From an uncultured virus (IMG/VR IMGVR_UViG_3300030102_004953) (Duplodnaviria > Heunggongvirae > Uroviricota > Caudoviricetes): 20,000 nucleotides of DNA. Both the position numbers and the translations under genes were made by a program. The notes under the pieces are model-generated. The model searched no databases. It saw only the letters and a list, made by a program, of their open reading frames with translations, and had not been told where the DNA came from. Shown piece by piece: positions 84 to 14,180 of this stretch (position 1 is its first letter; each line of letters starts with the position of its first letter). The stretch lies in IMG/VR virus record IMGVR_UViG_3300030102_004953. The stretch is one strand, 5' to 3'.

Positions 84-307
84 TAATACTCATCTCCATA
101 CAAGCTATATTTCTTTACAGGTTTAGGTGCTATCACACCATCCTCAGTATAAACTTTTCCATCTTTTGCATCTACTACAAATTCTGTAGCTGATGTTTCC
201 ATAAAAATAGCATTTAGAGCATCAGTTAGCGTAGTGTGAATTGTATCATCATTCTCTAACATCCATCTATCACCTGGTGGTACTCTTGTAGCAGCTAGTT
301 GTTTCAT
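83..307 (-). CDS. hypothetical phage protein (74 aa)
   Basis: ORF track; ATGA overlap with upstream gene, GGAGG upstream. Confidence 0.8.
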   Translation of the reverse strand: MKQLAATRVPPGDRWMLENDDTIHTTLTDALNAIFMETSATEFVVDAKDGKVYTEDGVIAPKPVKKYSLYGDEY

Positions 308-1098
308 TTTCTTCCTCCATCAATCATATGTTTAGGTAGTTGGTCATCAAAGTGTCTTTTTATTATTACAACTGGTAAATTAGGATTCATATTACTATAT
401 GCATAAATATCAAATGAGATTACTATTCTCATATCATCGCCAGTTGGTTCCACTCCGTGTTTTAAGTGTGATGGAAATAATACAACATCACCCTCTATTG
501 GTTTTATCTTAACTGATTCTACTCCTACATCACCTGTATTATATTCTTCTTCTATTCTCCTATCGTTTCTCCACAAGTAATCAAATACGTTTAAGTGATT
601 TCTATAAAAACTTAGATTAGGATTATTATTCTTTGGTAACTTAACATAATATATGCCAGATACGCAACCTCCTGTATGGTCGTGTATTGGTATCGCTGTC
701 TTAGCTGATTGTACATTGAACCACGATTTACCTATTACAAAATCTTGATTAATTAAATCAATGTTTAAATCGTATAGATATTTTTCTAAGTGAACATTTA
801 AATTTGAAAACAATTCTAAAAATAATGGGGTTTCTATATTATGTAGTCCACGCACATCTTTGTTATGTTCCATAGGATGTGATGATGAGTATCCAAAGCC
901 AGAAGAGTTGGATAATTGCATATTAGGATTAGCCTCATCTTGTTGGTATATATTATGTAACTCTACTTCTAACTTACTATTTAAATCTGATATAGCTTGT
1001 GGATTAGCTATAGGTTTTCTGTATATAGGATAATCAAATATCTTTGTGTAGACATTTTCATCCAAAGCATCTCTCTCTCCATATTCAAATGTAGGCAT
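304..1098 (-). CDS. 2OG-Fe(II) oxygenase (TIGR02466-like); likely start MPTFEY at 1098
   Basis: SWFN...HDH...SGIYYV...GDVVLFPSHLKHGV...RIVISFD motifs; TAATG coupling at 1098. Confidence 0.85.
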   Translation of the reverse strand: MPTFEYGERDALDENVYTKIFDYPIYRKPIANPQAISDLNSKLEVELHNIYQQDEANPNMQLSNSSGFGYSSSHPMEHNKDVRGLHNIETPLFLELFSNLNVHLEKYLYDLNIDLINQDFVIGKSWFNVQSAKTAIPIHDHTGGCVSGIYYVKLPKNNNPNLSFYRNHLNVFDYLWRNDRRIEEEYNTGDVGVESVKIKPIEGDVVLFPSHLKHGVEPTGDDMRIVISFDIYAYSNMNPNLPVVIIKRHFDDQLPKHMIDGGRK

Positions 1099-1826
1099 TA
1101 GTATATACTCTCTGGTTTCCAATTCCAATTATGTAAAATATAATCCATTTTCCAAAACTTATTTTCTGACATATACCTTAACATATCTTCATTATAATAT
1201 TCCATCAATGGCTTTTTACCAAATCTTTCTTTTGAAGAAAATATATTTTTCTGTTTATCACTATTAGAAAATGAACGAATGTTATCAATATTAAAACTCA
1301 AGTGTGGTAACCCTTTTTGTATTTCAATAAAATCTTCTTTTAGGTACTCTGCCCTTAATAAATAGTTTGGATTTCTGAACCAATTAGATTTTTCTTTACA
1401 AGCATCATAGTAAAATGATATAGGTGAAGCTAGTTCAAATCCAACCGAGAAATCATCCCACTTATCAAGTTCCATATGTATCTCAAAGAACTCAGAAAAC
1501 TCTAAGAACTTTCCTTTACTCCAAGTAAATGTTTTGTAATCTTGTCTATCGTGAAAAACTAAAAAGTAATGTGATAGTAGTCTAGCAGCTGGATGTCTTG
1601 TTGAACACACTATAGTAAAATCCTCAGCACCATCAGGACACAAGTAACCGTGATTAAATTGTCCTACACTATCATTGTATGTAAACATAGTGCCAGCATC
1701 GTAGAATATCTTATGACAATACCTTGAAGCGCACCTATCTGTAGCCCACCATAATAATTTATTAGAGTAGTCTACATTTGTGGGAATCTTGTAATCAGTT
1801 CCCTCTCTTAGAAGAAGAACCGCCAC
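1098..1826 (-). CDS. sulfotransferase family 2-like protein
   Basis: STRHPAARLLSHY matches the R-x-P-x-x-R-x-x-S 3'-phosphate-binding motif; LLRAEYLKEDF downstream motif. Confidence 0.65.
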   Translation of the reverse strand: MAVLLLREGTDYKIPTNVDYSNKLLWWATDRCASRYCHKIFYDAGTMFTYNDSVGQFNHGYLCPDGAEDFTIVCSTRHPAARLLSHYFLVFHDRQDYKTFTWSKGKFLEFSEFFEIHMELDKWDDFSVGFELASPISFYYDACKEKSNWFRNPNYLLRAEYLKEDFIEIQKGLPHLSFNIDNIRSFSNSDKQKNIFSSKERFGKKPLMEYYNEDMLRYMSENKFWKMDYILHNWNWKPESIY

Positions 1827-2599: not shown

Positions 2600-2671
2600 T
2601 AGCCCGTAGGGGAATCGAACCCCTGTTGCAGGAATGAAAATCCTGAGTCCTAACCACTAGACGAACGGGCC
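2600..2671 (-). tRNA. tRNA-Glu (TTC), CCA not encoded
   Basis: GGCCCGT/ACGGGCT acceptor, CAGGA-TTTTCAT-TCCTG anticodon arm, GGTTCGATTCC T-arm. Confidence 0.96.
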
Positions 2672-2676
2672 AGTAG

Positions 2677-3090
2677 TGGAGCTGGTGGGAATCGAACCCA
2701 CGTCCAAACGCTTTCTCGATGAAGTCATTTACAGCTTAGTTAGTTTCAAATCGGTAGTAACTAACAACCCACCATATCCCCATTTACTCAGATAGGTTTA
2801 ACTGGTAGGGTTTATTGTCTCCCTACATTGACGATCGTGTCTAACTTGTTTTATGACCGAGTGTTAAACAAACTCAGTATCTTATGCAGCGTGTGCGTAA
2901 GATGGTTGAGAAGTACGAGCTGGTTCAATAAATGTATCAAACATACGCTCTGAATTAGCTAGATGCCAATCCACTTTCAACCCTTGTAGCGATTTATCGC
3001 CATTTAGGTTTTGTGAGTCTTATTAAAGAGTCTACTCATACTCTGCTGCACTTCATTGTCAAATAACGCCTGTCGAAACCAGTCAGCCCC
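2677..3090 (-). ncRNA. ssrA: tmRNA (one-piece, 414 nt)
   Basis: 5' GGGGCTGACTGGTTTCGACAGG, 3' GGACGTGGGTTCGATTCCCACCAGCTCCA, G3-U70 alanine determinant, pk1 (AGAGT/ACTCT plus TGAGT/ACTCA), tag frame ending YAHAA-stop. Confidence 0.95.
2882..3001 (-). other. tmRNA tag reading frame: (A)GDKSLQGLKVDWHLANSERMFDTFIEPARTSQPSYAHAA*
   Basis: GGC resume codon 12 nt after pk1, preceded by TAAAT; open 39 codons to TAA. Confidence 0.8.
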
Positions 3091-3094
3091 ATAG

Positions 3095-3167
3095 AGCCAG
3101 AGATAGGATTCGAACCTACGACCTAGTGATTACAAATCACTTGCTCTACCAACTGAGCTACTCTGGC
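3095..3167 (-). tRNA. tRNA-Thr (TGT), CCA not encoded
   Basis: GCCAGAG/CTCTGGC acceptor, AGTGA-TTTGTAA-TCACT anticodon arm, GGTTCGAATCC. Confidence 0.96.
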
Positions 3168-3245
3168 ATAAAGTAGTGGGGAAGTCCTCACGCCCTATTG
3201 TTTGATATTATCGCTCGCCAGTTTGTGGTGTTTATCCACTACTTG

Positions 3246-3318
3246 TGGAGCTGACAGGAGTCGAACCTGCGACCTCCTCCGTGCAAGGGAGGCGCTCTCC
3301 CAACTGAGCTACAGCCCC
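3246..3318 (-). tRNA. tRNA-Ala (TGC), CCA not encoded
   Basis: GGGGCTG/CAGCTCC acceptor with G3-U70, CCTCC-CTTGCAC-GGAGG anticodon arm. Confidence 0.96.
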
Positions 3319-7827: not shown

Positions 7828-7919
7828 CTATAGATTCCTTTTTTTATTTCCTTTAGAAACTTTCTTATATGGTATACGCAAAATGCACCAATTAATATTA
7901 AAGCTATATAATCTATCAT
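7824..7919 (-). CDS. small membrane peptide, 31 aa (MIDYIALILIGAFCVYHIRKFLKEIKKGIYR)
   Basis: translated by hand; ATGA overlaps with both neighbours. Confidence 0.6.
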   Translation of the reverse strand: MIDYIALILIGAFCVYHIRKFLKEIKKGIYR

Positions 7920-8662
7920 TTGTAGTTAATCCCTATATTCCAACTCATACTTAATCTCTCGCCAGGTCCTTTAAATGGATACACCACGTGGTTCAACCAA
8001 GATGGGAATACAGCGAACAAGCCAGGATATGGTACGTGGTGTTGGTTACCATTATAAATAAATTGTCTCATATAATCTGCTGTGCTTGTATCCCATAGTA
8101 GTTCGGTTATACCATCCAGTTTATTCTCATCGAAGTAACCCTTTGGTATCTGCTCAGGTACTTTAAGATGTAAGAAGCCAGATAATGTACTATGGTAGTT
8201 AGAGCTGTGAAAATGTATTGGGTTGTAATCTCCCTCGTATTGATGTACAGTCCACATATCATCGATATGAATATCAAACTTCTCAGGTAATCCACTACCT
8301 AACATCACACCACCACCAAACTCTCTAAAGGAACCTACATACTGATTGGTTGCTTCTATCAATACGTGTACTAGATTCTGTACCATAGGATGTTTCGGGT
8401 CTATCTGTAGTTGTTTACTCTTCGGTGTATCCATCCTACCAACTAAAGCACTATCATAATCCTTACCGTGATTTTCGAAACCACTCCACCTTACAGGATT
8501 TGTTGTGTTCCTCTGCTTACCATCGTGGTAAACATCATCGCACATTTGGATGAGTTCGTTTATAACCTCATCCGTTAAGACTCCCTCTACTATATGGAAT
8601 CGTGGTATGTGTCGTAATGCAAGTTCATCTTTAAGCAAAGACTTCATTTCTACATTCTTCAC
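7916..8662 (-). CDS. 2OG-Fe(II) oxygenase
   Basis: MW...GDYNPIHFH...LSGFLHLKVP...FPSWLNHVVYPF...ERLSMSWN. Confidence 0.88.
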   Translation of the reverse strand: MKNVEMKSLLKDELALRHIPRFHIVEGVLTDEVINELIQMCDDVYHDGKQRNTTNPVRWSGFENHGKDYDSALVGRMDTPKSKQLQIDPKHPMVQNLVHVLIEATNQYVGSFREFGGGVMLGSGLPEKFDIHIDDMWTVHQYEGDYNPIHFHSSNYHSTLSGFLHLKVPEQIPKGYFDENKLDGITELLWDTSTADYMRQFIYNGNQHHVPYPGLFAVFPSWLNHVVYPFKGPGERLSMSWNIGINYK

Positions 8663-9571: not shown

Positions 9572-9820
9572 TTACAATGGTAACCCGTGACCCGTATTTA
9601 CATAGACGGGTTTCTCTTCTTTCTTCTCTTCTCTCTTCTTATTCATCTCTTCAATAAAGTGGTCGTGTTTAATAACGTGAGGTGGTTTACCTAAAGTCTT
9701 TACGAAGTTATCCCAAGAGCCGTTTGCTATACGTTCCTGCATAAGCTCCTGAATCTCATCCCAACTCATCCGTTTGATAGTATCCTTATACCATCCAAGT
9801 GTATCGTATTCTTCACTCAT
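9572..9820 (-). CDS. hypothetical protein (82 aa)
   Basis: ORF track. Confidence 0.75.
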   Translation of the reverse strand: MSEEYDTLGWYKDTIKRMSWDEIQELMQERIANGSWDNFVKTLGKPPHVIKHDHFIEEMNKKREEKKEEKPVYVNTGHGLPL

Positions 9821-9942
9821 CTTGGCGGCATAAGAATGTTATTCATACCATCCATCACACGTTGCAAGAATATGTTCTTCTCGGTATTACGCTTCTTATA
9901 TTTCCTACGGGTGGTACGCTTAATAATTTTCTTCTGACCCAT
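9817..9942 (-). CDS. small basic protein, 41 aa (MGQKKIIKRTTRRKYKKRNTEKNIFLQRVMDGMNNILMPPR)
   Basis: translated by hand; GAGGG RBS, ATGA overlap with next gene. Confidence 0.7.
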   Translation of the reverse strand: MGQKKIIKRTTRRKYKKRNTEKNIFLQRVMDGMNNILMPPR

Positions 9943-9943
9943 A

Positions 9944-10099
9944 CTAAAACCCTCGTTTCTTCTTTAACTTATTATACTTCTTACGTAAGGAACGCTTCTT
10001 CTCTCTCATACGCACTAACAACTCCATCTGCAACCTCTTTATACCCTTACGCTTCTTACGAGCCCAAAAGCTCCTACGCCTTCTTTCTCCTCTATTCAT
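9944..10099 (-). CDS. very basic protein, 51 aa (MNRGERRRRSFWARKKRKGIKRLQMELLVRMREKKRSLRKKYNKLKKKRGF)
   Basis: translated by hand; AGGGGAG RBS. Confidence 0.75.
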   Translation of the reverse strand: MNRGERRRRSFWARKKRKGIKRLQMELLVRMREKKRSLRKKYNKLKKKRGF

Positions 10100-10262
10100 A
10101 TAACTCCCCTATTGTTATAATAATAAATACTAGATTGAGCTAAAATAAATCTTTATGCGACACTTCCCCAACGCTACTTTGATATGGTATTACCATATAA
10201 ACAATATTAATATTCCCATAGGGATAAATTTTAACCTCGGGTCGTATACACGCTCAGCTCAC

Positions 10263-10307
10263 AAAAAAGGTGGTTAGCCTTTCTACGTTCACGGTTAAAT
10301 GACCACC
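10263..10307 (-). terminator. putative intrinsic terminator after ORF 10311-10493
   Basis: GGTGGT/ACCACC stem followed by TTTTTT on the minus strand; loop is large. Confidence 0.45.
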
Positions 10308-10310
10308 CCC

Positions 10311-10493
10311 CTATGCTCTGCCTATCGGTATCCCCTTATCCTGCCAGTGTCCTATGTTCTCCCACATAGCCATCAGGCTCAGTTGTAGCGTGCTGTCGTC
10401 CATCTCCGTGTAGAAGCTACCATCCATCATATCCGCCAGTAGGTTGCGTATTATCTCCCTATCCACGTTATCTATTATATTGTCTAGTTGCAT
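10311..10493 (-). CDS. hypothetical protein (60 aa)
   Basis: ORF track. Confidence 0.65.
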   Translation of the reverse strand: MQLDNIIDNVDREIIRNLLADMMDGSFYTEMDDSTLQLSLMAMWENIGHWQDKGIPIGRA

Positions 10494-10531
10494 TTGAGCT
10501 CTTTCTTTTTTATATGCCGCTTAAAATCTTG

Positions 10532-10603
10532 AGCGGTGTGTTGGTACTGCCCCAACCCCTCTTCTATGGAATAGAAGCGTATCTCTCTTGATACTTCCAC
10601 CGC
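10532..10603 (-). tRNA. non-canonical tRNA-Gly (TCC)
   Basis: GCGGTGG-AA-GTAT(CAAGAGAG)ATAC-G-CTTCT(ATTCCAT)AGAAG-AGGG-GTTGG(GGCAGTA)CCAAC-ACACCGC-T; full cloverleaf, U73, but no TTC and no D-loop GG. Confidence 0.8.
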
Positions 10604-10609
10604 ATATGT

Positions 10610-10645
10610 AAATAGTATTAGATTATTCAGAATACTATTTTTTTT
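10610..10645. terminator. AT-rich 10-bp inverted repeat, terminator-like
   Basis: AAATAGTATT/AATACTATTT with a T-run on the plus strand. Confidence 0.4.
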
Positions 10646-10647
10646 AT

Positions 10648-10693
10648 CCGAGCCGCTATGATTCGAACATAGCAGTTATATCTCCACTACTCG
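10648..10693 (-). ncRNA. tRNA-like 12-bp minihelix with T-loop
   Basis: CGAG-(TAGTGGAGATATAA)-CTGCTATG-TTCGAAT-CATAGCGG-CTCG-G. Confidence 0.55.
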
Positions 10694-10694
10694 T

Positions 10695-10893
10695 TAAGCG
10701 TGGTGTGGCAATACAACTTCACCAGCAGCTCACCCCATCGTGTTTAGCTGGATTGTTCTTGAACGACACCACGCTCACATTAGGATTTTTCAAAAATCTT
10801 TGGGTGGTTGGTATTCTTACGATTCACTTAGCCCCGAGGGACCACCCTTATTACGATTACCCATTAGAAGTTGTCTGCTTCCACCACGTGGGT
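10695..10893 (-). ncRNA. multi-hairpin structured RNA of unknown class
   Basis: stems TGAGCGTGGTGT/ACACCACGCTTA, GGGTGGT/ACCACCC, GATTTT/AAAATC, ACCCA/TGGGT plus GGAAG/CTTCT; G-U pairs favour the minus strand. Confidence 0.55.
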
Positions 10894-10903
10894 TTCTCTA
10901 TAG

Positions 10904-11024
10904 AGACAAGATAGGGACTCGAACCCTACAGCTCCTCAAACAAAACTCAAGTAATCAGCTCTTTGTTTCTCAGAACACCACTAGACTCAGAGGGTGATTA
11001 GCCCTCATCAACGCCCGTCTTGCC
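10904..11024 (-). ncRNA. 121-nt tRNA mimic with K-turn and complementary loops
   Basis: GGCAAGA/TCTTGTC acceptor, TAGGG-TTCGAGT-CCCTA T-arm, TGATGA/CTGA K-turn, loops CTAATCA and CTGATTA. Confidence 0.75.
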
Positions 11025-11053
11025 TTTCGAATTCTTCAAATAACTTACCCCCT

Positions 11054-11093
11054 AATATACGCATAAAGCCCCATACGTGTCAAGTCTTTTTTT
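11054..11093 (-). promoter_or_regulatory. repeated sigma70-like promoter, copy 4 (drives the ncRNA cluster)
   Basis: A-tract-GAC-TTGACA-N18-TATATT. Confidence 0.8.
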
Positions 11094-11144
11094 GCTTTAA
11101 CCTAAACTTTTTAGATGCCGCCATCGCACGAGCCTAAAATAGTT

Positions 11145-11184
11145 AAGAAAGTGCTTGACTTGTATTGGGTTTATTTCGTAAATT
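11145..11184 (+). promoter_or_regulatory. same promoter class, the only plus-strand copy seen
   Basis: AAGAAAGTGC-TTGACT-TGTAT..(N18)-TAAATT. Confidence 0.65.
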
Positions 11185-11234
11185 ACGGGTTAAGCCTTAA
11201 ACGCAACGGCTATAGCGCGTGGTATACAAGTTGG

Positions 11235-11273
11235 AATATAATACATATAACCTATACAAGTCAAGTCTTTTTT
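11235..11273 (-). promoter_or_regulatory. repeated sigma70-like promoter, copy 5
   Basis: A-tract-GAC-TTGACT-N18-TATATT. Confidence 0.75.
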
Positions 11274-12059
11274 AGCGGCTCGAATCCCGCGCCATATAGG
11301 TTAGCCGCTCTAAACTATTTAGCTAGGAATACCAACCCAACCCATATGTCAAAATGTCATATATATCTCAGGGCTTCGCGCATAGGGATACGCTATACTT
11401 GCGCAAGCGTGTAACACACTTAATTATTCAGAGTTTTATTCATAGTTATATCAATCTGAGGATATTGAGGTATATGAGAGCGCTGAGATATTGTGTTGTA
11501 TCAAACTCCATATATCAGATTAAGTGGGTAGAAGTGGGTTAATGTGGAATACGTATGGATAGTTACGACAAACCCGATTGAGTGTTTTTCGATGCCAGGA
11601 GTACCCATATTACCTTCAAAAAGGGTGCTTCCTGAGGGTGAAATATATCTCATTAGGGTTGTATTGATTAGCACTCAATCATATATTTGATGAGGTATCT
11701 CACGCAGATGACGAATACTATTGCTAGGAATTCATCGGGGTAGGTGGTTATGAAATATTTGAGGCTTTCGATTAAGCCTTTGATGATGTGTGTATAGTCG
11801 ATAATGTATTATATCGATAAGTGTCGTAGCGTGATAATAAATAGTGTTGGGAATGCTGAAAATGGGATTTGGTGAGAACTTAGATTGTGAGAGTGAACTA
11901 TGGGCTAGAGGATACGGCGTTAGCCGTGTCCATTAGTGTATCTCTTATAAATCTTCTATGTCTCTTTGGAATTTTTGTATTTGCACTAAGCCCCATAGTT
12001 GTATTCCTACTATTAATAACATAATACCTACTAAGGAGCCTAGTACATTTAGTAACATT

Positions 12060-12687: not shown

Positions 12688-13392
12688 TCATTTATACCAA
12701 AAAACTTGTGCCAGAGTATACCTTGAGTCTAAATAGTCGTCCGATGGAGCGTTCCCACAATGAGGTATGATAGATTTAAACAAGGCTATTCTGCCTGGCT
12801 TTGGCGTTATACTTTTTATGAGCTTAGCGTCCCTATCATATAAATCCAAGTTCCCCCCATACCAATCTTCCCAATAGTCATTAGCGAAGTAGATTAGCGT
12901 CCATACATTATCATTCTGACTATCTGTATGTGGGTAGCTATGCATTCCTCTAGCTTGTGAGTTTACAACCTGAGAACGTAGGAATACTAAGTCCTCTGAT
13001 ATATTAAAGTGTTCTAGTACCCTACTATAGATGTAGTTACAGGCAAATCTTTTTTCTATGCCGCTATCGTATCTCTCATTGTGTTCACCCTCTTCCCAAG
13101 TTTTAGTCTTTGGATTGACTGAATAGTCCTTGAAGAATGAGTGAACATAACAGGCTACATCTTGTAACCCTAACTCATCGTATACTCTGTCTGGCCATAT
13201 CCTATCCGTTGATTTGTTATAGGATAATCTATTGTACTGCCAATTTATATTATTTCTGATGTGTTCGTAGAAGTTATGGATGAATGTATCATCAAACAAA
13301 TCATCCACTACATAGCAGTCATCTTCTACGTTACCTTGATATGGTGCGTTATCACCTATTTCATTCTGATTGAGTCTCATCATCTTCCTCAT
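12688..13392 (-). CDS. 2OG-Fe(II) oxygenase (prolyl-hydroxylase-like)
   Basis: HTD...TLIYF..W...GG.L...PKPGRIALF...PHCG...RYTLA. Confidence 0.88.
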   Translation of the reverse strand: MRKMMRLNQNEIGDNAPYQGNVEDDCYVVDDLFDDTFIHNFYEHIRNNINWQYNRLSYNKSTDRIWPDRVYDELGLQDVACYVHSFFKDYSVNPKTKTWEEGEHNERYDSGIEKRFACNYIYSRVLEHFNISEDLVFLRSQVVNSQARGMHSYPHTDSQNDNVWTLIYFANDYWEDWYGGNLDLYDRDAKLIKSITPKPGRIALFKSIIPHCGNAPSDDYLDSRYTLAQVFWYK

Positions 13393-13897
13393 CGTAGATT
13401 TCTAATAACTTTCTACGAAGTACGCCTACGTTAGCTGGTGTAGTAATCGTTCTACCAGGACGTTTCATTAGGAAGAAACAATTATAACAAATTAGTGTGA
13501 TGTTATCTCTACTCATATTTTTATAGTCCCCATCGAGAAAGTTGAGTAGGTAGGGACCTTTTAAATCTTTATCTCTTACCTCATCGTATCCACAATTACT
13601 ACAGGCTTGTAACAATAATCCGTTTTTGATAAGCCTCTCTTGTAGTTTGTAGTGTGGATAGTTTGGATGTTTGCCATCGAAGATATCATTTATGTTAACC
13701 GCATACATATCTTCTCTGTATCTTGGTATTCCTACACCTGATGGATTCTTTTGTTCCTCAAACACTCCGTATAGCTTAGCATACTTTTTGTAAGTGTTAT
13801 AGGACACACCAAGTAGTTTAGCAGCTTGTCTACAACTTAAAGTTTGTTTGTTAGCCCATTCTAACTGAGCTTTGTTGAATTTTGGTTTATAACCCAT
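13361..13897 (-). CDS. HTH plus HNH-like zinc-finger protein (catalytic His apparently lost); likely start MGYKPKF at 13897
   Basis: SCRQAAKLLGVSYNTYKKY HTH; CSNC...LNFLDGD..N....N...ICYNC. Confidence 0.7.
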   Translation of the reverse strand: MGYKPKFNKAQLEWANKQTLSCRQAAKLLGVSYNTYKKYAKLYGVFEEQKNPSGVGIPRYREDMYAVNINDIFDGKHPNYPHYKLQERLIKNGLLLQACSNCGYDEVRDKDLKGPYLLNFLDGDYKNMSRDNITLICYNCFFLMKRPGRTITTPANVGVLRRKLLEIYDEEDDETQSE

Positions 13898-14180
13898 CTG
13901 GCGTTGTATTTTCCTCTTCCCACCACTTGTACTCACCCATAGAGTGAGGACCTTTCCATCTTGTAGCATCAGCATCTGAATCTAATGAAGTTACAGTACC
14001 CTCATCTAAATTTAATCTCCATTGTCGTATGCCTGTAATATCTTTTAGTGCGTTCATTAGATTATCAAGTGACCAACTATGTAAATAATCACCTTTTAAA
14101 TCTTTAACAACGTCTGATACCCATTTACCATCTTCATTTCTACTGGCTACCACAACACCTAACTTCACATCTTTACTCAT
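13887..14180 (-). CDS. hypothetical protein (97 aa)
   Basis: ORF track; AGGTGA RBS. Confidence 0.75.
   Translation of the reverse strand: MSKDVKLGVVVASRNEDGKWVSDVVKDLKGDYLHSWSLDNLMNALKDITGIRQWRLNLDEGTVTSLDSDADATRWKGPHSMGEYKWWEEENTTPDGL

What the first reader, a model, noticed from the sequence alone, without database searches (positions are those of the whole stretch)
10532..11093. Dedicated ncRNA operon of tRNA-like modules, possibly processed by tRNA-style punctuation
Seen: promoter copy 4 (11054-11093) points into ~500 nt with no credible ORF. In transcript order it holds the 121-nt mimic, a ~200-nt multi-hairpin domain, a 46-nt T-loop minihelix, an AT hairpin and a non-canonical tRNA-Gly. 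None is an ordinary decoding tRNA, unlike the normal cluster at 2600-3318. Inference: the flanking 12-bp acceptor/T units could be RNase P/Z signals that cut out the middle RNA, or the whole ~380 nt could be one ornate phage RNA (GOLLD/ROOL-like context). This is the best candidate for an undescribed system in the window, perhaps together with the basic proteins downstream.
Basis: partly seen in the sequence, partly recalled or inferred. Interest (0 to 1): 0.8.

Follow-up and report, generated by a model that had tools for sequence, protein, structure and literature searches.

The report
Array of tRNA-shaped phage small RNAs
An uncultured marine T4-like phage carries a promoter-driven string of small structured RNAs that imitate parts of tRNA; the first belongs to a conserved RNA family that matches nothing in the RNA family library searched.

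Summary
Window 10494-11093 (minus strand) has no credible ORF and sits behind a strong sigma70-type promoter. It contains separately conserved RNA modules.

1. A 121-nt tRNA-shaped RNA (11024-10904). It was found in 81 held loci from marine viral and metagenome contigs. Its structure is 96% paired, and 21 of 42 pairs show compensatory changes. It has an acceptor/T-arm minihelix and two arms with K-turn-like GA motifs. The arms end in invariant, mutually complementary 7-nt loops (UAAUCA/UGAUUA).
2. A middle domain, of which only a 55-nt core is conserved.
3. A 46-nt "elbow" minihelix (16 variants).
4. A 72-nt cloverleaf with a Gly anticodon, bacterial GlyRS determinants and non-canonical D and T loops (3 variants).

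None matches Rfam at E<=10, ARAGORN, or T4 RNAC/RNAD. The modules occur in different combinations and orders in relatives, so this is not one ornate RNA.

Most likely this is one transcript that the host's tRNA-processing enzymes cut into tRNA mimics. That step is inferred, not shown. The function is unknown, and a decoy role is my best guess.

A small acidic ORF, not the basic ORFs, is the conserved downstream neighbour. I rate this a new variant of a known kind (phage tRNA-like small RNAs) and of fairly high interest.

The parts
11054..11093 (-). Sigma70-type promoter with A-rich upstream block (-35 TTGACA 11083-11078, -10 TATATT 11059-11054)
   Evidence: 11 of 12 consensus positions. (13-mer repeated 5 times exactly). 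56 of 61 relatives with enough upstream DNA have a like motif upstream of their module.
11025..11047 (-). Short 5' leader (the transcription start near 11047 is inferred)
   Evidence: Position relative to the -10 box. A 211-nt contig from an RNA library covers 11041-10831. Contigs cannot prove ends.
10904..11024 (-). Module A, a 121-nt tRNA-shaped RNA. Acceptor 11024-11018 / 10910-10905, discriminator 10904. P2 11016-11013 / 10986-10983. K-turn-like motif 1: 11012-11008 with 10988-10987. Hairpin 1 11006-10990 (loop CUAAUCA 11001-10995). Linker with invariant UGG 10982-10977. P3 10976-10972 / 10935-10931. K-turn-like motif 2: 10971-10970 with 10941-10936. P4 10969-10967 / 10944-10942. Hairpin 2 10961-10949 (loop CUGAUUA 10958-10952). 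T arm 10929-10911.
   Evidence: Alignment A1, RNAalifold, pair counts, CM R1 at 134.8 bits.
10694..10903 (-). Middle domain of about 210 nt, closed by a long-range helix in the MFE fold. Only the core is conserved.
   Evidence: z -1.83. Apart from L144, the contig identical to the window here, no homologue of the whole domain in held loci.
10794..10853 (-). M1 core: a hairpin with a covarying closing stem (GGGUGG/CCACCC) and an invariant interior CUAAGUGAAUCGUAAGAAUACCAA
   Evidence: present in L108, L139/L140 and L149/L162, with closing stems GGUGGG/CCCACC and GGGUACG/CGUACCC. The 18-mer was not found in viral contigs.
10648..10693 (-). Elbow minihelix: 5-bp terminal stem (CGAGU/GCUCG), single strand AGUGGAGAUAUAAC, 6-bp T stem and UUCGAAU loop
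   Evidence: Alignment A2 of 16 variants. 87.5% of cells paired, 6 of 11 pairs with changes on both sides.
10611..10640 (-). AT-rich spacer hairpin (AUAGUAUU / AAUACUAU)
   Evidence: Read from the sequence. L139/L140 align at 74% over the 90 nt from the minihelix into this spacer (win 10692-10609). Function unknown; it is not terminator-like by the scan.
10532..10603 (-). Non-canonical tRNA-Gly-like cloverleaf, 72 nt, anticodon UCC. D arm GUAUC-AAGAGA-GAUAC without GG. T loop GGCAGUA without UUC.
   Evidence: Alignment A3. 95.5% of cells paired, 7 of 22 pairs with changes on both sides. MFE is the cloverleaf, z -4.65.
10311..10493 (-). 60-aa acidic ORF, the conserved downstream neighbour of these RNA arrays
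   Evidence: Its homologue family lies downstream of module A in 26 (plus 9 in a look-alike cluster with the same C-terminal motif, similarity judged by eye) of 70 distinct loci. It also follows the tRNA-Gly-like RNA in L036. No Pfam or PHROG family. Helical model, no fold match.

Best explanation
The stretch is a promoter-driven array of separately evolving, non-coding structured RNA modules in an uncultured marine T4-like myovirus.

Shown:
- Module A (121 nt) belongs to a conserved family that matches no Rfam family and no paper found in the searches listed. It has a 12-bp acceptor/T-arm minihelix, a canonical T loop and an invariant UGG.
- In place of D and anticodon arms it has a 4-bp and a 5-bp helix. 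Each leads through a GA-motif internal loop to a hairpin with an invariant 7-nt loop.
- The two loops (UAAUCA, UGAUUA) are complementary. The second reads like a tRNA-Ile(GAU) anticodon loop.
- The minihelix is a bare tRNA 'elbow' with a short stem.
- The last module is a cloverleaf carrying all the bacterial glycine determinants listed in PMC10464925 but non-canonical D and T loops.

Inferred:
- The GA motifs are K-turns that bend the two arms so that their loops kiss.
- The array is one early transcript that host RNase P and 3'-end enzymes cut at the tRNA-like units, as in the T4 tRNA/RNAC/RNAD precursor.
- The products act as tRNA mimics. Module A would be a non-decoding decoy or ligand for a tRNA-binding host factor. 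The Gly RNA would be chargeable but poorly suited to the ribosome.
For: Family and structure:
- Pattern scans gave 15 family loci of 16 hits in viral contigs and 64 in metagenome contigs.
- CM R1 matches 81 of 91 sources searched. The 10 misses are loci fetched for other modules.
- On 54 distinct sequences, 96.1% of cells pair and 21 of 42 pairs change on both sides. 0 of 500 shuffles reach this, and slid controls pair at 40-55%.

GA motifs: G16 U17 U18 G19 A20 and G41 A42 G43 are invariant, as are G58 A59 G60; A106 is invariant and G105 at least 90% conserved (alignment columns; one search lists them in first-sequence numbering).

Loops:
- They are 6-nt complementary in 44 of 54 distinct sequences.
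- They are unchanged in divergent copies scoring 71-85 bits.
- They are swapped between the two hairpins in L046.

Own promoter: 56 of 61 loci. In 25 of 62 loci the next feature downstream is another promoter (sequences).

Independence of modules.

Gly RNA:
- G1:C72, C2:G71, G4:C69, C35, C36 and U73 are invariant.
- These match the determinants named in PMC10464925 (abstract and passages).

Processing analogy:
- A 77-nt non-tRNA hairpin lies flush between tRNA-Ala and tRNA-Thr.
- Its homologue lies inside L006's array.

RNA libraries: a 211-nt contig covering 11041-10831 in one metatranscriptome, and shorter related contigs in others.
Against: - No end-mapped or stranded RNA data exist. The RNA-library evidence is contigs only, which show no strand or ends, and DNA carry-over is possible.
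- The loop-loop helix has no covariation. 10 of 54 distinct sequences carry an uncompensated A.A mismatch. The invariance of both loops could instead mean that each binds an outside partner.
- The K-turn reading rests on sequence pattern only. The second motif has a 4-nt bulge in short forms. The divergent clade replaces the second G.A pair.
- The discriminator base of module A varies and no CCA is encoded, so aminoacylation is unlikely and its target is unknown.
- The single-sequence fold of module A is not significant (z -0.50) and misses the T arm.
- Module A is absent from P-SSM2, P-SSM5, P-TIM68 and a complete 216-kb relative. It is present in only 8 of 80 loci anchored on a neighbouring protein.
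Confidence: 0.6

Rival explanations
1. The tRNA-like units are cis-acting parts of the 5' untranslated region of the downstream small acidic ORF. They would stabilise, process or regulate that mRNA and would not be free-standing small RNAs.
For: The acidic ORF family follows module A in 26 (plus 9 in a look-alike cluster) of 70 distinct loci, as close as 56 nt after the T loop. It also follows the tRNA-Gly-like RNA where module A is absent. No terminator or promoter was found between the array and the ORF in the window.
Against: In 25 of 62 loci the module is followed first by another promoter. In several it is followed by unrelated ORFs. Some loci carry tandem second copies. Many loci end before any ORF could be seen, so the linkage count is uncertain in both directions.
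Confidence: 0.15
2. Module A's two loops pair between molecules, or with other RNAs such as the anticodon loop of host tRNA-Ile(GAU), rather than within one molecule. The RNA would then be a dimer or scaffold, or a sponge for that tRNA.
For: Both loops are invariant rather than covarying. Loop 1 contains AUCA, complementary to UGAU of a GAU anticodon loop. Loop 2 equals CUGAUAA in 12 of 84 matches; that this is the E. coli tRNA-Ile loop is recalled. The reduced form L044 presents UGAUAA with no partner loop.
Against: The swap of the two loops in L046 keeps them together in one molecule. The two GA motifs flanking the arms are what an intramolecular loop-loop contact would need, as in the lysine riboswitch (recalled).
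Confidence: 0.12
3. The modules are decayed ordinary tRNA genes (pseudogenes) left in a hypervariable region.
For: Each has a T arm or cloverleaf remnant. ARAGORN and Rfam do not call them.
Against: There are compensatory changes in almost every helix. Long invariant non-tRNA stretches are kept across 54 distinct sequences. They have their own promoters and paralogous second copies that keep the fold.
Confidence: 0.03
4. The whole ~380-500 nt is one large ornate RNA (GOLLD/ROOL-like) or a known RNA such as tmRNA, YrlA, 6S, SRP RNA or RNase P RNA.
For: Dense predicted structure: the whole-region fold has z -2.67.
Against: No Rfam family at E<=10. Modules occur singly and reordered. The middle part is not conserved as a whole.
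Confidence: 0.03
5. Module A is a working adaptor in translation: an expanded tRNA-Ile or a mini tmRNA-like molecule that is charged and enters the ribosome.
For: Acceptor/T minihelix of standard length. The hairpin 2 loop looks like an Ile anticodon loop.
Against: The arm carrying that loop is far longer than an anticodon arm and is interrupted by internal loops. The discriminator varies among U, A, C and G. There is no G3:U70 and no tag ORF. The tRNA and tmRNA models do not match.
Confidence: 0.05

Closest known systems
Phage T4 RNAC and RNAD (species 1 and 2 RNAs)
   Same: Both are small stable non-tRNA RNAs encoded with phage tRNA genes in a T4-type genome. T4 rnaC also folds with a T arm (CCGGG-UUCGAAU-CCCGG) next to long hairpins. 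Their function is still unknown (passages in PMC3014915 and PMC9697503).
   Different: No detectable homology: CM R1 finds nothing in the T4 locus at E<=1. T4 RNAC/RNAD are classed as late RNAs (PMC9697503), whereas these have early-type sigma70 promoters. T4 rnaC shows no complementary loop pair; I did not look for GA motifs in it.
Non-proteogenic tRNA-Gly(UCC) of staphylococci
   Same: Both are glycine tRNAs with a UCC anticodon and a T loop lacking the UUC triplet. The staphylococcal ones have UGC or UGU; the relative L036 has UGCGAUU. The staphylococcal tRNAs are charged by GlyRS but bind EF-Tu weakly (passages in PMC7826273). The phage RNA keeps the GlyRS determinants.
   Different: The phage RNA also lacks the D-loop GG and has a 5-bp D stem. 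One homologue has anticodon ACC. No Fem-type transferase or other user is known here. Nothing has been tested biochemically.
K-turn plus loop-loop architectures (lysine riboswitch; T-box Stem I)
   Same: A GA-motif kink at the base of an arm lets a terminal loop reach a partner. T-box Stem I presents a codon to a tRNA anticodon above a K-turn. These comparisons are recalled knowledge, not tested here.
   Different: Here both partners sit in one tRNA-framed molecule with an acceptor/T minihelix. There is no ligand pocket or expression platform. No Rfam riboswitch or T-box model matches.
tRNA-like processing units (mascRNA of MALAT1; mitochondrial tRNA punctuation)
   Same: Minimal tRNA-shaped elements inside longer transcripts that RNase P/Z cut to define RNA ends. 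The 46-nt elbow minihelix and the flush tRNA-hairpin-tRNA arrangement fit this logic.
   Different: The known examples are eukaryotic. The minihelix has only a 5-bp terminal stem and no anticodon arm. Cleavage has not been shown.

Membership tests
tRNA (Rfam RF00005) - module A | Acceptor stem plus T arm stacking to 12 bp, with a UUCRANY T loop | tested here: met
   Acceptor 6 bp plus T stem 6 bp (or 7+5 in the window). The T arm is 100% paired and the acceptor 94.4%.
tRNA (Rfam RF00005) - module A | D arm and a 5-bp anticodon stem closed by a 7-nt loop, total length about 72-90 nt | tested here: not met
   Both arms are replaced by helix-GA motif-hairpin units. Length is 121-134 nt.
tRNA (Rfam RF00005) - module A | Recognised by the tRNA covariance model or ARAGORN | tested here: not met
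   No tRNA hit at E<=10 in 10200-11500. ARAGORN calls none.
tRNA-Gly - 72-nt RNA at 10532-10603 | Four-arm cloverleaf with a 7-nt anticodon loop carrying NCC | tested here: met
   95.5% of cells paired, 7 of 22 pairs compensatory. Anticodons are UCC, UCC and ACC. The MFE fold is the cloverleaf.
tRNA-Gly - 72-nt RNA at 10532-10603 | Bacterial GlyRS determinants G1:C72, C2:G71, C35, C36, U73 (and purine 4 : pyrimidine 69) | tested here: met
   All are invariant in 3 of 3 homologues. The determinant list comes from PMC10464925. Charging itself was not tested.
tRNA-Gly - 72-nt RNA at 10532-10603 | Canonical elbow: G18 G19 in the D loop and U54 U55 C56 in the T loop; recognised by tRNA finders | tested here: not met
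   The D loop is AAGAGA. T loops are GGCAGUA or UGCGAUU. There is no Rfam or ARAGORN call, even with ARAGORN's -ps95 and -ps80 settings.
tmRNA | tRNA-like domain with G3:U70, pseudoknots and a tag reading frame | tested here: not met
   No tmRNA hit in the region. The window's real tmRNA is at 2674-3090. Acceptor pair 3:70 varies.
GOLLD, ROOL, YrlA, 6S, SRP RNA, RNase P RNA | Match to the Rfam covariance model | tested here: not met
   All 4227 Rfam models were searched at E<=10. The only hits were two unrelated chance hits on the plus strand.
K-turn (kink-turn) motif | Watson-Crick stem, 3-nt bulge, then tandem G.A / A.G pairs opening the second stem | tested here: met
   Sequence pattern only. 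Motif 1 is C15-[GUU]-G19 A20 opposite G41 A42-G43, all invariant (alignment columns). Motif 2 has a 3-4-nt bulge. Divergent copies change the second G.A.
K-turn (kink-turn) motif | Sharp kink in three dimensions, or binding by L7Ae-type proteins | not testable with these tools
   No RNA 3D prediction or probing data were available. No L7Ae-family domain was found among the 42 window ORFs scanned against Pfam.
T4 RNAC/RNAD | Sequence and structure homology to T4 rnaC or rnaD | tested here: not met
   R1 finds no match in L104 at E<=1.

The most novel reading that the evidence does not exclude
Module A may be a new class of phage tRNA mimic. An Ile-type anticodon loop would be locked by two K-turns into a built-in codon-anticodon-like kissing complex on a normal acceptor/T-arm body. 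That would make it a 'pre-decoded tRNA' serving as decoy or ligand for a host factor that inspects tRNAs, such as a processing or modification enzyme or a tRNA-targeting defence nuclease. The surrounding array would be a phage toolkit of tRNA-punctuated small RNAs: an elbow minihelix, an M1 hairpin and a chargeable but ribosome-shy tRNA-Gly. The modules would be shuffled among marine myoviruses and excised by the host's tRNA-processing machinery.
Probability: 0.25. Interest if true: 0.85.

Novelty: new variant of a known kind. Interest (0 to 1): 0.7.

Why it matters
Phage-encoded tRNA-like small RNAs have been known since T4's RNAC and RNAD. Reviews still state that their role is unknown (PMC3014915, PMC9697503).

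Here a much better constrained example appears in uncultured marine myoviruses distantly related to cyanophages.
- It has a family with dozens of natural variants.
- It has a well-determined secondary structure.
- It has two protein-or-tertiary-contact motifs and an unusual self-complementary loop pair.

That gives a concrete object for structure determination and for pull-downs of the host partner.

The accompanying glycine cloverleaf keeps the synthetase determinants but lacks the elbow consensus. This raises the question of whether phages use charged tRNAs outside the ribosome, or use them to evade tRNA-directed defences.

Practically, tRNA finders and Rfam miss these genes, so such loci are currently annotated as empty intergenic DNA.

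Tried and rejected
Searches of known sequence and families
- blastn of the region and of module A against 50,697 phage records: no match.
- The window's own genome is not held.
- Exact 25-mer of the T arm/acceptor in viral contigs: none.
- M1 18-mer in viral contigs: none.
- Module A pattern and minihelix pattern in 185,579 bacterial and archaeal species genomes: none.
- R1 on P-SSM2, P-SSM5, P-TIM68 and two long viral contigs: only one weak hit, E 0.117.
- Rfam on the reduced form L044: no tRNA hit.
- Earlier findings of this scan: nothing by place, sequence or words.

Flanking ORFs
- The locus fetched with the 60-aa ORF gave one weak relative.
- tblastn of the 60-aa ORF against phages: none.
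- AlphaFold model of the ORF (pLDDT 86.5, helical): no PDB fold match at E<=0.001.
- Pfam and PHROG on flanking ORFs gave no RNA-related enzyme.
- Basic ORFs 9817-9942 and 9944-10099: no homologue in held loci.

Sequences set aside
- L091, one of the 16 viral pattern hits, is an unrelated T-arm-bearing sequence and was dropped.
- L041 was left out of alignment A1 (57 of 58 unique sequences used) because its 5' acceptor strand was unclear. R1 later matched it at 72.8 bits.
- L144 equals the window over 10494-10903 and was not counted as independent.

RNA libraries
- The parts of the stretch without RNA-library cover say nothing.

Literature
- Searches (listings and abstract openings only, apart from the passages cited) found no description of this family.
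- bioRxiv supplements are closed, and subscription journals are not in the library.
Full report
SETTING
All credible genes in the window lie on the minus strand. Three ORFs are 2OG-Fe(II) oxygenase paralogues, and there is a glycosyltransferase and an HNH-like ORF. One ORF's best relatives are in Prochlorococcus phages P-SSM2, P-SSM5 and P-TIM68 at 46-56% identity. So this is an uncultured marine T4-like myovirus, distantly related to cyanomyoviruses. No isolate phage is close at the DNA level. The window also holds three ordinary tRNAs and a one-piece tmRNA at 2600-3318.

THE OBSERVATION
- The promoter at 11083-11054 matches 11 of 12 consensus positions.
- Its upstream block AAAAAGACTTGAC occurs five times exactly on the minus strand. 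Counting up to 2 mismatches there are 7 matches against 1.17 expected by chance, and 0 of 200 shuffles reach 7.
- From 11054 down to the start codon at 10493, the minus strand has only 24- and 38-aa ORFs. The plus-strand ORFs of 47-85 aa have no Pfam match.
- Rfam finds nothing relevant at E<=10. ARAGORN finds nothing, even at lowered thresholds.

MODULE A (11024-10904)
How relatives were found:
- Loci anchored on a neighbouring 76-aa protein gave the first homologues.
- Two degenerate patterns then gave 16 viral loci, one of which (L091) is a chance hit, and 64 metagenome loci.
- 57 unique sequences were aligned as A1. L041 was left out at this stage.

Structure from RNAalifold plus inspection:
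- acceptor of 6-7 bp;
- a 2-nt linker;
- P2, 4 bp (GGGC/GUCU), enclosing hairpin 1 (5 bp, loop YUAAUCA);
- a linker ARUGGN;
- P3, 5 bp, enclosing P4 and hairpin 2 (3 bp, loop NUGAUUA);
- an optional small hairpin in the long forms;
- one nucleotide, then a T arm with UUCRANU.

Support on 54 distinct rows:
- 96.1% of 2100 cells pair.
- 21 of 42 pairs change on both sides.
- No shuffle of 500 reaches the observed values.
- Structures slid by 1-3 columns pair at only 40-55%.

The frame therefore has tRNA's four-way topology and the helix lengths 12 (acceptor+T), 4 and 5. The D and anticodon loops are replaced.

GA MOTIFS
The invariant blocks GUUGA and UGAG recur at both arms. They can be read in two places:
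- C15-[G16 U17 U18]-G19 A20 opposite G41 A42-G43;
- U89-[GUU(U)]-G105 A106 opposite G58 A59-G60.
That is a Watson-Crick stem, a short bulge and tandem G.A/A.G, which is the K-turn pattern. This is inference from sequence. The second bulge has four nucleotides in short forms. A divergent clade (L040, L041, L052) replaces the second G.A in both motifs.

THE TWO LOOPS
- UAAUCA and UGAUUA are perfectly complementary in 44 of 54 distinct rows.
- 10 of 54 rows have UGAUAA, giving an uncompensated A.A.
- Both loops are unchanged even in copies scoring only 71-85 bits, including second copies in tandem in L119 and L113. So there is no covariation for or against pairing.
- One lineage (L046, 46 bits) carries the loops swapped: UGAUAA on hairpin 1 and CUAAUCA on hairpin 2. 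That favours a mutual contact.
- A reduced form (L044, 41.5 bits) lacks hairpin 2. It closes P3 directly with the loop UGAUAA, and its hairpin 1 has no UAAUCA.
- Loop 2 reads like a tRNA-Ile(GAU) anticodon loop and loop 1 contains the codon AUC. This resemblance is recalled knowledge plus reading of the sequence.

GENE STATUS OF MODULE A
- 56 of 61 loci with enough upstream DNA have a promoter-like motif upstream of the module.
- In 25 of 62 loci the next feature downstream is another promoter. For example, in L089, L090, L093 and L097 it follows within about 20 nt. So the module can stand alone as a gene.
- It is present in only 8 of the 80 loci anchored on the 76-aa protein.
- It is absent from three isolate cyanophage genomes and a complete 216-kb relative.
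- It is absent from the pattern scans of bacterial and archaeal genomes.

OTHER MODULES
Minihelix (10693-10648). It consists of a 5-bp stem, the strand AGUGGNGAURUAAN, and a 5-6-bp T stem with UUCGAWU. There are 16 variants, 87.5% of cells pair, and 6 of 11 pairs are compensatory. It is a tRNA elbow without D stem or anticodon arm. It lies in various contexts:
- directly after module A in L140 and L111;
- after other hairpins in the window, L006 and L117;
- or alone.
It is absent from cellular genomes by pattern.

Middle domain. This is weak as a whole (z -1.83). Its core at 10853-10794 recurs in five loci with covarying closing stems.

72-nt RNA (10603-10532). It has homologues in L036/L037 and L170.
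- Seven of 22 pairs are compensatory.
- Anticodons are UCC, UCC and ACC.
- G1:C72, C2:G71, G4:C69, C35, C36 and U73 are invariant. These are the bacterial GlyRS determinants according to PMC10464925 (abstract and passages).
- Its D loop lacks GG and its T loop lacks UUC.
- This resembles the non-proteogenic staphylococcal tRNA-Gly(UCC), which has UGC or UGU in the T loop and low EF-Tu affinity (passages in PMC7826273).

ARCHITECTURE OF THE ARRAY
- The modules recombine freely, so the idea of one ornate RNA is rejected.
- No minus-strand promoter or terminator was found between 11054 and the ORF at 10493. The only terminator-like call on that strand is the T arm itself. One transcription unit is therefore the simplest reading.
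- A 77-nt hairpin RNA at 3244-3168 sits flush between tRNA-Ala and tRNA-Thr. It recurs with compensatory closing-stem changes in five loci, including inside L006's array between module A and the minihelix. This makes excision by tRNA-processing enzymes the natural model, as for the T4 tRNA/RNAC/RNAD cluster. It is not shown.

EXPRESSION
- One metatranscriptome holds a 211-nt contig equal to 11041-10831 at 98%. Its differences include the GC-to-AU change seen in the family.
- Three other RNA-labelled runs hold short contigs of relatives.
- Contigs show neither strand nor ends, and DNA carry-over cannot be excluded. This is a hint only.

NEIGHBOURS
- A 55-67-aa acidic protein ending in ..IIGEA follows module A in 26 of 70 distinct loci. 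A further 9 carry a look-alike cluster with the same C-terminal motif; I judged that similarity by eye.
- It also follows the Gly-like RNA in L036.
- It has no family. Its model is a helical hairpin, and there is no fold match.

COMPARISON AND VERDICT
- No homology to T4 RNAC/RNAD or to any Rfam family.
- Four literature searches found no description of this family.
- In kind it belongs with phage tRNA-like small RNAs.
- In architecture it matches no model or paper I could find: two GA-motif arms and a self-complementary loop pair on a tRNA frame, together with an elbow minihelix and a non-canonical glycine cloverleaf.
- The function is not established. I rate a tRNA-decoy or ligand role after tRNA-type processing as most likely. 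A cis role for the downstream ORF and an intermolecular role for the loops are the main rivals.

Noticed in passing
window 3168-3244 (-): A 77-nt hairpin RNA (closing stem AAGUAGUGG/CCACUACUU) lies flush between tRNA-Ala and tRNA-Thr. It is conserved in L172, L162, L181, L180 and L087 with compensatory closing-stem changes, and it also occurs inside L006's ncRNA array. No Rfam match at gathering score.
   Followed up: partly
window 2674-3090 (-): A one-piece tmRNA gene (Rfam 107.8 bits) sits between tRNA-Thr and tRNA-Glu in a phage. ARAGORN did not report it.
   Followed up: no
window 11095-11945: About 850 nt are free of credible ORFs. The stretch holds a second copy of the promoter (11264-11235, -) and a promoter copy in the opposite orientation (+ strand 11155-11184). 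The part from 11271 to 11945 has no match in held loci.
   Followed up: partly
L119:409-533, L113:217-345, L148:944-1014: Some relatives carry a second, divergent copy of module A (80, 71 and 64 bits) a few hundred nt from the first. Both loop sequences are intact where the copy is complete.
   Followed up: partly
L049 and L034, about 20-200 nt downstream of module A: Another conserved structured stretch (GAGUUGAGUAGCC...GGGGACUUCC...CCCC) is shared by these two loci but absent from the window. It is probably one more RNA module of the same toolkit.
   Followed up: no
window 10851-10858 and 10817-10824; L173/L176/L178/L179 downstream of their minihelices: The short motif AAUCGUAA recurs inside hairpins next to these RNA modules.
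   Followed up: no
window 304-1128, 7916-8662, 12688-13392 (-): Three 2OG-Fe(II) oxygenase paralogues lie in 20 kb, together with an HNH-endonuclease-like ORF at 13361-13975.
   Followed up: no
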